A stretch of DNA of 32,000 nucleotides from positions 366,590 through 398,589 of IMG/VR virus record IMGVR_UViG_3300022719_000283; one strand, 5' to 3'. The notes under the pieces were generated by a model that worked only from the letters and a program-made list of their open reading frames with translations, was not told the DNA's origin and made no database searches. Below, in pieces: positions 17,361-17,494 of this stretch. This DNA comes from a virus. Taxonomy: Duplodnaviria > Heunggongvirae > Uroviricota > Caudoviricetes. How positions within the stretch are numbered: position 1 is the stretch's first letter; each line of letters begins with the position of its first letter. The position numbers were made by a program, and so were the translations under genes.

Positions 17361-17451
17361 GGATCGACGGCTTCATAGCCGTTGCGTCTACCAGTTTCGC
17401 CACCCCCGCATAAAGTGGAGCGGGGAGAAGGATTCGAACCTCCAAAGATCC
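17361..17451 (-). ncRNA. Permuted tRNA-like module P2 (class II D arm, closed 6-nt-loop hairpin, open variable arm)
   Basis: Minus-strand order is as follows. It opens with GGAUC (17451-17447), UUU, and the T arm GGAGG-UUCGAAU-CCUUC. Then come UCCCCGC-U-CCA (17426-17416) and the linker CUUUAU. The second half is GCGGGGG (17409-17403), UG, GCGA-AACUGGUAGA-CGC, and A. It closes with the hairpin ACGGC-UAUGAA-GCCGU, C, and GAUCC (17365-17361). The acceptor strands pair 6 Watson-Crick plus 1 G.U. GGAUC/GAUCC can form a variable-arm stem. Confidence 0.55.
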
Positions 17452-17465
17452 TTGGCCTAGCGTTC

Positions 17466-17489
17466 AGCTTGAATTTGAGCTTGAGCTTG
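17466..17489. repeat. Tandem hexamer repeats (AGCTTG/AATTTG) in the leader of module P2
   Basis: The plus strand reads AGCTTG AATTTG AGCTTG AGCTTG. On the minus strand this is (CAAGCT)2 CAAATT CAAGCT. Confidence 0.75.
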
Positions 17490-17494
17490 CCTCC

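What the first reader, a model, noticed from the sequence alone, without database searches (positions are those of the whole stretch)
17361..17494. Second permuted tRNA-like module (P2): class II D arm, encoded CCA, 6-nt hairpin loop, open variable arm
**Order on the minus strand.** Directly after the stop of CDS 17495-17878 comes a repeat-rich leader, followed by:
- GGAUC-UUU and the T arm GGAGG-UUCGAAU-CCUUC
- the 3' acceptor strand UCCCCGC-U-CCA
- a 6-nt linker, CUUUAU
- the 5' acceptor strand GCGGGGG-UG
- a Leu-type class II D arm (GCGA-AACUGGUAGA-CGC)
- a closed hairpin, ACGGC-UAUGAA-GCCGU, in the anticodon-arm position
- C-GAUCC

**Comparison with P1.** The arrangement is again 3' half before 5' half, with 6 Watson-Crick pairs plus one G.U in the acceptor stem. 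Here the molecule is open in the variable arm, where GAUCC/GGAUC can pair. The anticodon-position loop has 6 nt (8 if the closing C-G pair opens), so it cannot decode conventionally.

**Significance.** Finding this topology twice in 32 kb, on different tRNA scaffolds (Pro-like and Leu-like), argues against random tRNA debris.
Basis: partly seen in the sequence, partly recalled or inferred. Interest (0 to 1): 0.85.

Follow-up and report, generated by a model that had tools for sequence, protein, structure and literature searches.

The report
tRNA-shaped domain of unknown conserved RNA
The "permuted tRNA" is real, but it is one of two tRNA-shaped domains inside a previously undescribed ~460-base non-coding RNA that always follows an uncharacterised protein gene (DUF7873) in many phages and some bacteria, which suggests a new tRNA-mimicking RNA-protein partnership.

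Summary
It is far from chance. In 29 distinct orthologues, 98.9% of T-arm, acceptor and D-stem cells pair, against 46-63% when partners are slid, and 10 of 15 pairs show double compensatory changes. Un-permuted in silico, ARAGORN calls it a class-II-shaped tRNA in 7 of 8 lineages, with no conserved anticodon.

It is not a stand-alone gene. It is the first of two tRNA-like domains in a ~460-nt RNA (window 17040-17503, minus strand).

This RNA follows a DUF7873 gene in Nannocystis chromosomes, a Phycisphaera MAG, huge-element metagenome contigs and cultured Gordonia, Arthrobacter, Klebsiella, Vibrio, Rhizobium and Pseudanabaena phages. In the Gordonia, Arthrobacter and Rhizobium phages examined it lies inside tRNA arrays. 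P2's encoded CCA is clade-specific, and some lineages lack P2 altogether.

The capped-acceptor layout is already known from bacterial Y RNAs (YrlA) and two-piece tmRNA. I found no description of the RNA family or its protein partner. The most likely mechanism is tRNA mimicry, probably with RNase P opening the capped acceptor; this is inferred, not shown.

The parts
17040..17503 (-). Whole conserved non-coding RNA (~464 nt), from the 5' mini-hairpin to the U-tract after the terminal hairpin
   Evidence: Conserved end to end in 26 distinct orthologues found with an anchor outside P2. It fills the gene-free 350-550 nt after DUF7873 in further loci. Coordinates. The ends are inferred from conservation, not mapped.
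17491..17503 (-). 5' mini-hairpin UUCCC-AUA-GGGAG. Its GGGAGG (17490-17495) can alternatively pair with UCUCCC of segment 2.
   Evidence: UCCC-N3-4-GGGA is kept with variable loops in about 30 sequences. RNAalifold on the window's clade chooses the long-range GGGAGR:UCUCCC helix, with compensation in L079 and L064.
17462..17488 (-). Segment 1: G-poor hexamer repeats (A-R-N-N-U-N) x4-5, AAG CUC AAG CUC AAA UUC AAG CUG AAC
   Evidence: 3/6-nt periodic conservation. Summed entropy by triplet position is 4.4/2.4/9.7, and U and A are invariant in the columns the search pattern did not fix. There is no conserved ORF.
17447..17451 (-). P2 closing helix, 5' strand GGAUC (variable-arm position)
   Evidence: Pairs with 17361-17365. 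Orthologues have GGGACC/GGUCCC, GGAGACC/GGUCUC, GGCGGGCC/GGUUCGCC and others.
17427..17443 (-). P2 T arm GGAGG-UUCGAAU-CCUUC, preceded by an invariant U (U48-like)
   Evidence: 5/5 pairs in all orthologues, the loop UUCGA is invariant, and 3 of 5 pairs show double changes.
17403..17426 (-). P2 capped acceptor hairpin: 3' strand UCCCCGC (17420-17426), cap U-CCA-CUUUAU (17410-17419), 5' strand GCGGGGG (17403-17409)
   Evidence: 7 bp kept with at least 10 different sequence pairs, and 6 of 7 pairs show double changes. The cap varies from 7 to about 35 nt, and CCA occurs only in some clades.
17384..17400 (-). P2 D arm GCGA-AACUGGUAGA-CGC (tRNA-Leu type, 3-bp stem), preceded by UG (U8, G9)
   Evidence: U8, the GG of the D loop and the stem are invariant in A3. 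It is 18/19 identical to the D arm of window tRNA-Leu(aag) at 9056-9142.
17367..17382 (-). P2 hairpin in the anticodon-arm position, ACGGC-UAUGAA-GCCGU
   Evidence: Always present directly after N26, but with a stem of 5-9 bp and a loop of 3-11 nt. No anticodon is conserved after un-permuting.
17361..17365 (-). P2 closing helix, 3' strand GAUCC
17322..17351 (-). Segment 2: CUCAAGCUCAAGCUAUCUCCCAAGCUCAAC, a second set of YUC-AAR repeats with the invariant UCUCCC (17331-17336)
   Evidence: Conserved in all orthologues. UCUCCC is complementary to the 5' GGGAGA.
17155..17279 (-). Second tRNA-like unit ('P3'): closing helix GUCCG/CGGAU, T arm CGCGG-UUAGAAU-CCGUG (17254-17270), acceptor GGGGUAC-A-CCA (17243-17253), 58-nt insert with hairpins (17185-17242), 5' strand GUACCCC-UG and D-like segment (17157-17184)
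   Evidence: The T stem pairs 5/5 in all 26 sequences. The acceptor pairs 7/7 in 25 and 6/7 in one, with about 11 sequence variants. N-CCA is present in all 26, and the insert is 6-60 nt. The unit is also present in L005, L079, L081, L083 and in phages. L081 lacks the CCA.
17082..17154 (-). 3' domain with conserved CUAAGAGCUGG motif and hairpins
   Evidence: Alignment; consensus fold.
17047..17081 (-). Terminal 12-bp hairpin with conserved loop (GUGAGGUUACAU) followed by a U-tract: terminator-like
   Evidence: The stem co-varies and the loop motif AGG(C/U)UAC is conserved. The consensus terminator scan missed it because it only accepts loops of 3-8 nt.
17881..18621 (-). DUF7873 gene, the constant upstream partner of the RNA
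   Evidence: Pfam PF25283, E = 6e-101. More than 4,000 homologue clusters. It is followed by the RNA in every locus examined.

Best explanation
P2 is a tRNA-Leu-derived, circularly permuted tRNA-mimic domain. It is the first of two tRNA-like domains in a ~460-nt non-coding RNA that is genetically coupled to the uncharacterised protein DUF7873.

The domain keeps everything needed for the tRNA L-shape: a 7-bp acceptor stacked on a 5-bp T stem, the UUCGA T loop, GG in the D loop, U8, and a U48-like base. It has lost decoding, because the anticodon-position hairpin is free to vary. It is spliced into the larger RNA through its variable arm, and its acceptor stem is capped by a variable loop.

Inferred mechanism: the RNA, probably bound by DUF7873, presents tRNA shapes to tRNA-recognising machinery. 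The strictly kept 7-bp acceptor, the frequent N-CCA right after it and the freely variable spacer suggest a processing route. RNase P would cut at the 5' end of the acceptor 5' strand, and exonucleases or the CCA-adding enzyme would finish the 3' end. The result would be a nicked, base-paired multi-piece RNP with tRNA-like CCA ends, as documented for M. smegmatis YrlA and two-piece tmRNA.

Shown here: the structure, its conservation, the linkage to DUF7873 and the placement inside phage tRNA arrays. Inferred: transcription limits, cleavage, protein binding and the cellular role.

The confidence of 0.55 is for the whole statement. The structural and family part alone is about 0.95, and the RNase P cleavage step alone is about 0.5.
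For: - Structure and covariation of P2.
- The tRNA nature of the un-permuted sequence.
- Invariant tertiary-contact nucleotides (U before the T stem, U8, GG, UUCGA).
- Leu-type D arm compared with the window's tRNA-Leu.
- P2 is embedded in a larger conserved RNA that was found with an anchor outside P2.
- The second unit, with 7-bp acceptor and N-CCA followed by a 6-60 nt insert.
- The RNA follows DUF7873 in Nannocystis chromosomes, in unrelated cellular contigs and in cultured phages of six host genera. It lies inside tRNA arrays in Mimi, Phendrix and RHph_TM21B.
- A covariance model built on 23 sequences finds the domain in unseeded loci at 42-72 bits. tRNA-tRNA junctions in the window score 14-42 bits.
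[quoted passage not shown] Precedent from two-piece tmRNA: PMC11915505.
- The element also encodes a CCA-adding enzyme and EF-Tu.
Against: - There is no transcript, cleavage or binding data of any kind.
- P2's CCA is absent in the cellular clade, and L081's second unit lacks CCA. Processing therefore cannot depend on an encoded CCA everywhere.
- S. Typhimurium YrlA and D. radiodurans Yrn1 are not cleaved, so a capped acceptor does not by itself imply cleavage (PMC4201824).
- P2 is dispensable in some lineages.
- DUF7873 has no recognisable RNA-binding fold. Foldseek finds nothing significant, so the protein-RNA partnership rests on gene linkage alone.
- The hexamer repeats are unexplained.
Confidence: 0.55

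Rival explanations
1. The same RNA and domain, but never cleaved. The capped tRNA shapes act purely as handles or decoys that bind, sequester or recruit tRNA-recognising proteins such as modification enzymes, tRNA-targeting nucleases, ribosomal tRNA sites or DUF7873 itself. The CCA-like triplets in the caps would then be incidental or would serve only as binding determinants.
For: CCA is not universal in either unit. Caps can hold stable hairpins of 20-60 nt, which could be functional rather than discarded. Most characterised YrlA/Yrn1 RNAs are not cleaved (PMC4201824). The RNA's location inside phage tRNA arrays fits a role in conflicts over tRNA.
Against: The acceptor length is held at exactly 7 bp in nearly all of about 35 sequences for both units while cap length is free. 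That is the pattern expected for a measured RNase P / CCA-enzyme substrate. N-CCA sits exactly at the discriminator position in 26/26 second units of the main clade and in actinophage, Klebsiella, Vibrio and Rhizobium phage units.
Confidence: 0.3
2. A new tmRNA-like (trans-translation-type) RNA. After processing, one tRNA-like unit is aminoacylated and enters stalled ribosomes, a G-poor segment serves as the message, and DUF7873 plays the SmpB role.
For: The permuted T arm / 3' strand-CCA / spacer / 5' strand order is that of two-piece tmRNA genes, and there is a weak partial hit to cyano_tmRNA. The RNA is tightly linked to one small conserved protein gene; by my own recollection this resembles smpB-ssrA linkage. 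Segment 1 varies like codons for K-L-K-L-x-F-N-L. The element encodes EF-Tu and a CCA-adding enzyme.
Against: There is no G3:U70 except by chance in one phage. No conserved reading frame, resume context or stop exists: stops fall at 14-147 triplets and the phases vary. ARAGORN does not call a tmRNA in the window or in the loci scanned, and Rfam tmRNA models stay far below their gathering scores. Acceptor sequences and discriminator bases vary, so there is no common aminoacylation identity. DUF7873 is not SmpB by Pfam or by fold.
Confidence: 0.1
3. A Y RNA of the YrlA type that is bound by a Ro60 (Rsr) orthologue.
For: The strand order of its tRNA-like domain (V/closing, T, capped acceptor, D) is the same as in YrlA. 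The same window contains a YrlA-like element, P1.
Against: The Rfam YrlA model does not hit P2 or P3 even at E <= 10. The Ro60-binding motif GNCGAAN0-1G occurs in only 7 of 26 sequences, at inconsistent positions. No TROVE gene appears in the precomputed Pfam hits listed for ten fetched loci. The RNA is 3-4 times longer than the 114-position Rfam YrlA model, and it has two tRNA-like units and a different constant protein partner.
Confidence: 0.05
4. A stand-alone circularly permuted tRNA gene, as in Cyanidioschyzon or Thermofilum, or a split tRNA, that matures into a decoding tRNA.
For: The un-permuted sequence is called a tRNA by ARAGORN. CCA is encoded in the window copy.
Against: No anticodon loop is conserved; loops are 3-11 nt and the triplets differ. 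The flanks are conserved RNA rather than spacers. Some family members lack the domain. From general knowledge, bacteria lack the splicing endonuclease pathway used for permuted pre-tRNAs.
Confidence: 0.03
5. Debris from a tandem tRNA-Leu duplication, or a chance juxtaposition of two tRNA halves.
For: A tandem duplication followed by truncation at both ends is how such a permutation would arise, and adjacent tRNA-Leu genes exist in the window.
Against: The domain is conserved with compensatory change from Myxococcota chromosomes to actinophages. In the control, 0 of 44 ordinary junctions have a 7/7 acceptor.
Confidence: 0.01

Closest known systems
YrlA-type bacterial Y RNAs (Rfam RF02553; Chen et al. 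2014, PMC4201824)
   Same: The tRNA-like domain is written in the order (V arm) - T arm - capped 'acceptor' stem-loop - D arm and is closed by a helix that leads into the rest of the RNA. T- and D-loop tertiary nucleotides are conserved. YrlA RNAs are found in bacteria and phages. The M. smegmatis member, with a 7-bp acceptor, is cut by RNase P and receives CCA.
   Different: The RNA here has no Ro60-binding stem or motif, no rsr linkage and no hit by the YrlA model. It is ~460 nt with two tRNA-like units, hexamer repeats and a 3' domain. P2 is closed through the variable-arm position and keeps a full anticodon-position hairpin. The constant partner gene is DUF7873.
Two-piece (circularly permuted) tmRNA genes of Alpha- and Betaproteobacteria and Cyanobacteria (Rfam RF01849-51, RF04321; PMC11915505)
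   Same: The gene order is T arm - 3' acceptor strand - CCA - variable spacer - 5' acceptor strand. Maturation is by tRNA-processing enzymes into base-paired pieces. Both are linked to a dedicated small protein gene.
   Different: The RNA here has no G3:U70, no tag reading frame with resume and stop codons, and no tmRNA-type pseudoknots recognised by the models. It has a real D stem. Its partner is not SmpB.
Circularly permuted tRNA genes of Cyanidioschyzon merolae, prasinophyte algae and Thermofilum pendens (from my own knowledge: Soma et al. 2007; Chan et al. 2011)
   Same: The 3' half is encoded upstream of the 5' half of one cloverleaf.
   Different: Those genes mature into normal decoding tRNAs through a circular intermediate and the splicing endonuclease. 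P2 has no conserved anticodon, occurs in bacteria and phages, and is a domain of a larger RNA.
Other embedded tRNA mimics (from my own knowledge: mascRNA in MALAT1, plant-virus 3' tRNA-like structures)
   Same: A tRNA shape inside a longer RNA that is recognised by tRNA enzymes.
   Different: Those are colinear or pseudoknotted designs in eukaryotic or RNA-virus settings, with no capped acceptor.

Membership tests
YrlA / bacterial Y RNA | tRNA-like domain in the order T arm - capped acceptor-like stem - D arm | tested here: met
   compared with the description in PMC4201824.
YrlA / bacterial Y RNA | Recognised by the Rfam YrlA covariance model (RF02553) | tested here: not met
   No YrlA hit at E <= 10 over window 16800-18000 or over the Nannocystis copy. 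By contrast, P1 at 9180-9249 scores 37 bits.
YrlA / bacterial Y RNA | Ro60-binding helix with the GNCGAAN0-1G motif formed by the RNA ends | tested here: not met
   The motif is present in 7 of 26 sequences at inconsistent positions.
YrlA / bacterial Y RNA | Genomic linkage to rsr (Ro60, TROVE domain) | tested here: not met
   No TROVE family appears in the precomputed Pfam hits listed for ten loci or among the window ORFs scanned. The constant neighbour is DUF7873. The whole 618-kb element was not available.
Two-piece permuted tmRNA | Permuted tRNA-like domain: T arm, 3' strand-CCA, spacer, 5' strand | tested here: met
Two-piece permuted tmRNA | G3:U70 alanine identity pair | tested here: not met
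   The third acceptor pair is G-C, C-G or A-U in both units of the main set. A G.U appears at that position in only one phage, by my reading of its sequence.
Two-piece permuted tmRNA | Tag reading frame with conserved resume codon and stop | tested here: not met
   The first in-frame stop falls at 14-147 triplets, and the phase between landmarks takes all three values.
Two-piece permuted tmRNA | Detected by ARAGORN or the Rfam tmRNA models | tested here: not met
   The only hit is a 10.4-bit partial match to cyano_tmRNA, whose gathering score is 70.
Two-piece permuted tmRNA | SmpB partner and ribosome entry | not testable with these tools
   The adjacent protein is DUF7873, with no SmpB Pfam hit and no fold match. 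Function was not assayed.
Circularly permuted tRNA gene (decoding) | The un-permuted sequence forms a tRNA cloverleaf | tested here: met
   ARAGORN of 8 un-permuted orthologues as tRNA.
Circularly permuted tRNA gene (decoding) | Canonical 7-nt anticodon loop with a conserved anticodon | tested here: not met
   Loops are 3-11 nt. ARAGORN- or 4-base 'anticodons' in five lineages and different triplets in two.
Circularly permuted tRNA gene (decoding) | Bulge-helix-bulge junction and processing through a circular intermediate by the splicing endonuclease | not tested
   No BHB analysis was done. As far as I know, this pathway has not been reported in bacteria or their phages.
DUF7873-linked tRNA-like RNA (family proposed here) | Lies directly downstream of, and on the same strand as, a DUF7873 gene (sometimes after one small inserted ORF) | tested here: met
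   Window, the loci listed, and cultured phages.
DUF7873-linked tRNA-like RNA (family proposed here) | 5' hairpin + A-R-N-N-U-N repeats + at least one T arm / 7-bp capped acceptor / D unit + terminal hairpin | tested here: met

The most novel reading that the evidence does not exclude
DUF7873 and this RNA form a previously unrecognised, widespread ribonucleoprotein of bacteria and tRNA-rich phages. RNase P opens its two tRNA-mimic domains into CCA-ended, possibly aminoacylatable arms. Its codon-like (K-L-K-L-x-F-N-L) segment is read or bound on the ribosome. That would make it a third class of tRNA-like/mRNA-like quality-control or translation-hijacking RNA alongside tmRNA and Y RNA.
Probability: 0.15. 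Interest if true: 0.92.

Novelty: new variant of a known kind. Interest (0 to 1): 0.72.

Why it matters
Very few classes of bacterial RNA are known to mimic tRNA as part of a larger RNP; the two I can name are tmRNA and YrlA-type Y RNAs. This work defines what looks like another such class.

- **The RNA.** It is ~450-550 nt long and carries one or two strictly tRNA-shaped, capped-acceptor domains.
- **The partner.** It is always paired with one highly conserved protein of unknown fold, DUF7873, which has more than 4,000 homologue clusters.
- **The distribution.** It occurs in Myxococcota and Planctomycetota genomes and in cultured, genetically tractable phages of Gordonia, Arthrobacter, Klebsiella, Vibrio, Rhizobium and Pseudanabaena. 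In several of these it sits inside tRNA gene arrays and is unannotated or mis-annotated.

This gives a function-unknown Pfam family a concrete RNA partner. It also explains recurrent "empty" gaps in phage tRNA clusters and offers testable systems for asking what phages do with tRNA mimics. For the scan itself, it shows that "permuted tRNA" signals in phage DNA should first be compared with the YrlA and tmRNA architectures.

Tried and rejected
- **DNA searches with no result.** Megablast and blastn of the region against cultured phages found nothing. Exact-pattern scans of IMG/VR for the module core and for the downstream conserved stretch also found nothing. Relatives were reached only through DUF7873 and through an anchor in the second unit.
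- **T7-like promoter idea.** I considered CCCATAGGGAG as a repeated promoter. It occurs only once in the window and is no more frequent than chance at up to 2 mismatches. It is better explained as a hairpin or pairing element.
- **Promoter and terminator scan.** The consensus scan found nothing. The terminal hairpin has an 11-nt loop, outside the scanner's limit.
- **Translation of the G-poor segments.** Rejected as conventional coding. The periodicity itself remains unexplained.
- **A tag frame ending at the UAG in the second unit's T loop, or at the UAG/UGA in the terminal hairpin loop.** The phase is not conserved between clades, so this was dropped.
- **DUF7873 function.** I found no literature, no PDB sequence homologue, and no hit in PADLOC, NCBIfam or PHROGs. 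Foldseek against PDB and BFVD gave only non-significant Cas7/RAMP-like and uS10-like matches. I do not rely on those.
- **Shuffle control for the closing helix.** It was weak: 7.1 bp observed against 5.2 bp in shuffles. The case for that helix rests on its fixed position and sequence turnover instead.
- **Weak tRNA-Sec hit over the leader of the Nannocystis copy.** It is full of mispairs and was dismissed.
- **Cellular neighbours of DUF7873.** They are not conserved, so there is no operon-level clue.
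Full report
**1. The observation**

The unconstrained minimum-energy fold gives the hand-drawn structure: closing helix, T arm, capped acceptor hairpin, D arm and a further hairpin. 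The energy z-score is a modest -1.5. ARAGORN and Rfam at gathering scores and 10 ordinary tRNAs in the window but nothing here. A permissive Rfam scan gives only a 10-bit partial match to the permuted cyanobacterial tmRNA model.

**2. The setting**

The window is part of a very large element. The identical DUF7873 protein lies on a 618-kb contig, and an identical Logan contig exists. The window encodes EF-Tu, a CCA-adding enzyme, a UvrD-type helicase and many tRNAs. On the minus strand the gene order is DUF7873 (17881-18621), a 127-aa ORF (17495-17878), about 460 nt without a credible gene, a 141-aa ORF and then UvrD.

**3. P2 is conserved and co-varies**

Relatives reached through DUF7873 (L002, L004) carry the same module. 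Their closing helices (GGGU/ACCC, GGGACC/GGUCCC) and anticodon-position hairpins are compensated, and the whole intergenic region is conserved.

To avoid circularity I searched the large collections with an anchor outside P2, TGGTCCAACGTNAAGACGCGG. This gave 21 metagenome and 7 genome loci, two of which are chance hits. The genome loci include the chromosomes of six cultured Nannocystis species and a Phycisphaera MAG.

- **Alignment-free parse.** The T stem pairs 5/5 in all 24 parsed orthologues. The acceptor pairs 7/7 in nearly all, using about 9-10 different sequence pairs.
- **Closing helix and hairpin.** The closing helix is 4-11 bp. The hairpin is 5-9 bp with loops of 3-11 nt. Both are always present at the same junction positions.
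- **RNAalifold.** On a plain MAFFT alignment it recovers the T, acceptor and D helices.
- **Covariance model.** A model built on 23 sequences finds the domain in unseeded loci at 42-72 bits. tRNA-tRNA junctions in the window score 14-42 bits.
- **Formal count.** On the 29-sequence model alignment, 98.9% of cells pair against 46-63% for slid partners. Ten of 15 pairs change on both sides, and no shuffle out of 500 reaches any measure. That alignment is fitted to the model's structure, which favours it somewhat.
- **Junction control.** None of 44 ordinary tRNA-X to tRNA-Leu junctions in IMG/VR has a 7/7 'acceptor'.

**4. It really is a permuted tRNA shape, but it does not decode**

I joined the ends through the closing helix and opened the cap. 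ARAGORN then of 8 orthologues as class-II-shaped tRNAs. The 'anticodon' is a 2- or 4-base call in five lineages and a different triplet (ccg, agc) in two others.

The invariant columns are those that build the tRNA elbow and core: the U before the T stem, U8, GG in the D loop and UUCGA in the T loop. The D arm is 18/19 identical to that of the window's tRNA-Leu(aag).

**5. It is not a stand-alone module**

The conserved block runs from a 5' mini-hairpin (UCCC-N3-4-GGGA, 17491-17503) to a terminator-like hairpin with a conserved loop (17047-17081). In order, the parts between them are:

- a G-poor segment of A-R-N-N-U-N hexamers (17462-17488);
- P2 (17361-17451);
- a second G-poor segment with an invariant UCUCCC (17322-17351);
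- a second unit of the same permuted layout (17155-17279);
- a 3' domain (17082-17154).

The second unit ('P3') has a T stem that pairs 5/5 in all 26 sequences, with at least 7 variants. Its acceptor pairs 7/7 in 25 sequences and 6/7 in one, with about 11 variants. An N-CCA is present in all 26, followed by an insert of 6-60 nt. A consensus fold of the window's clade also pairs the 5' GGGAGR with UCUCCC, enclosing segment 1 and P2. Compensation in L079 and L064 supports this helix.

**6. The constant partner is DUF7873**

In Nannocystis punicea the RNA directly follows a DUF7873 gene. I fetched five more loci through DUF7873 homologues of 60-86% identity, in unrelated cellular or phage-like contexts. 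Each has a 450-550 nt gene-free gap holding the same RNA, with further acceptor variants.

tblastn finds DUF7873 in 75 cultured phages.

- In Arthrobacter phage Mimi, Gordonia phage Phendrix and Rhizobium phage RHph_TM21B, the gene sits inside a tRNA array and is followed by an unannotated gap of about 400-500 nt.
- The model or direct reading finds the tRNA-like units in Mimi, Phendrix, Ziko, Klebsiella jumbo phage FBKp24, Vibrio phage D472 and Pseudanabaena phage PA-SR01.
- In FBKp24 an annotated 'tRNA-Sup-TTA' overlaps the T arm of the second unit.

**7. What is and is not universal**

- **CCA of P2.** It is present only in the window's clade and some phages. Cellular copies have AUC, AUU or ACCG.
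- **The cap.** It ranges from 7 to about 35 nt and may contain a hairpin.
- **P2 itself.** It is missing from L067/L069 and from the Rhizobium phage RNA, which keep the downstream unit.
- **The downstream unit.** L081's copy has a canonical T loop, a GG D loop and no CCA.

P2 is therefore an accessory domain of the family, and the downstream unit is the constant one.

**8. Is it translated?**

Segment 1 reads K-L-K-L-x-F-K/N-L, and its variation is concentrated at every third base. Summed entropy by triplet position is 4.4/2.4/9.7. In the columns the search pattern did not fix, U, A and U are invariant. The pattern persists in Rhizobium and Gordonia phages.

Against translation, there is no conserved start. 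The first in-frame stop lies anywhere from 14 to 147 triplets downstream. The phase between landmarks takes all three values. I therefore do not treat it as an ordinary ORF. A 6-nt-periodic binding site, perhaps for oligomeric DUF7873, is my preferred guess, but this is unresolved.

**9. The protein**

DUF7873 is strongly conserved: 69% mean column identity over 48 homologues of 58-88% identity to the window protein. The AlphaFold model is confident, with pLDDT 89.7, and shows long helices plus a long beta-hairpin. Foldseek finds nothing significant in PDB or BFVD. There is no PDB sequence homologue, no PHROG, PADLOC or NCBIfam hit and no literature.

**10. Comparison with known systems**

Chen et al. 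2014 describe YrlA Y RNAs whose tRNA-like domain has exactly this strand order: V, T, capped acceptor-like stem, D. The M. smegmatis member has a 7-bp acceptor, is cut by RNase P and gains CCA in vivo. Two-piece tmRNA genes are likewise permuted and matured by tRNA enzymes.

P2 and P3 do not match it. They also lack the Ro60-binding motif and rsr linkage. For tmRNA membership they lack G3:U70, a tag frame and model hits.

The architecture is therefore known. The RNA family and its protein partner appear to be undescribed: there is no Rfam family and no paper that mentions DUF7873.

**11. Mechanism**

What is shown is a conserved tRNA-shaped domain, embedded in a larger RNA, linked to DUF7873 and enriched in phage tRNA clusters.

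What is inferred is how it works. The acceptor is held at exactly 7 bp on a 5-bp T stem, the frequent N-CCA sits at the discriminator position, and the spacer is free to vary. Together these fit an RNase P / CCA-enzyme substrate that is opened into base-paired pieces. I put about 0.5 on cleavage and about 0.3 on an uncleaved handle or decoy. A tmRNA-like ribosomal role is possible but poorly supported (about 0.1).

**12. Verdict**

The finding is upgraded from 'a second odd module' to 'a domain of a new, widespread DUF7873-linked tRNA-mimic RNA', but its topology is not unprecedented.

Noticed in passing
The score is 37 bits, E = 5e-7 in a 181-nt search, below the gathering score of 69. It folds with an 11-bp closing helix (z = -3.3). 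No Ro60 (TROVE) gene was seen among the window ORFs scanned.
   Followed up: partly
It has T arm CGCGG-UUAGAAU-CCGUG, acceptor GGGGUAC/GUACCCC, A-CCA and a 58-nt structured insert. It is the constant unit of the RNA family. In most members its T loop has A in place of C56 and its D loop lacks GG.
   Followed up: yes
window 17462-17488 and 17322-17351 (-): Two G-poor segments made of A-R-N-N-U-N hexamers. The first reads K-L-K-L-x-F-K/N-L and varies like codons, yet there is no conserved start, stop or phase. The pattern is conserved from Nannocystis to Rhizobium and Gordonia phages. It remains unexplained.
   Followed up: partly
window 20111-20189 and 21450-21524 (-); L004 1584-1661 and 1799-1874: tRNA genes that ARAGORN calls with non-standard anticodon loops: a 2-base 'ca' in the window, 4-base 'tcaa' and 2-base 'ag' in L004, and Leu(aag) at position 36 in the window. 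They lie 1.5-3 kb upstream of DUF7873 and recur in relatives.
   Followed up: no
window 5920-7120 (-) and 1356-2732 (+): The element encodes its own EF-Tu (all three EF-Tu domains) and a CCA-adding enzyme, next to 13 tRNA genes. This gene content resembles that of a huge phage or a similar large element. The identical DUF7873 protein lies on a 618-kb contig.
   Followed up: partly
window 17495-17878 (-): The 127-aa ORF between DUF7873 and the RNA is absent in L002, and L004 has a different 65-aa ORF at that position, so it looks like an insertion. Its UAG stop codon lies in the loop of the RNA's 5' mini-hairpin. It has no Pfam, PHROG, PADLOC or NCBIfam match.
   Followed up: partly
L088 3513-3597 (Klebsiella phage vB_KpM_FBKp24, MW394391.1): The feature annotated 'tRNA-Sup-TTA' overlaps the T arm and 3' acceptor strand of the second tRNA-like unit of the DUF7873-linked RNA. 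The suppressor-tRNA annotation may be a mis-call of this RNA, or the T arm may serve two alternative folds.
   Followed up: partly
L086 3235-3742 (Gordonia phage Phendrix), L085 3236-3644 (Arthrobacter phage Mimi), L089 3269-3722 (Rhizobium phage RHph_TM21B): In cultured phages the RNA occupies unannotated gaps after DUF7873 inside tRNA arrays. In Gordonia phage Ziko (L087), tiny 'hypothetical protein' calls at 3229-3342 and 3488-3697 partly overlap it.
   Followed up: partly
window 18631-18648 (-): CAAACU x3 repeats lie just upstream of the DUF7873 start codon and resemble the CAAGCU repeats of the RNA leader. CAAGCTCAAGCT-like 12-mers are strongly over-represented in the window: 22 matches against 2.3 expected, mostly on the minus strand.
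   Followed up: no
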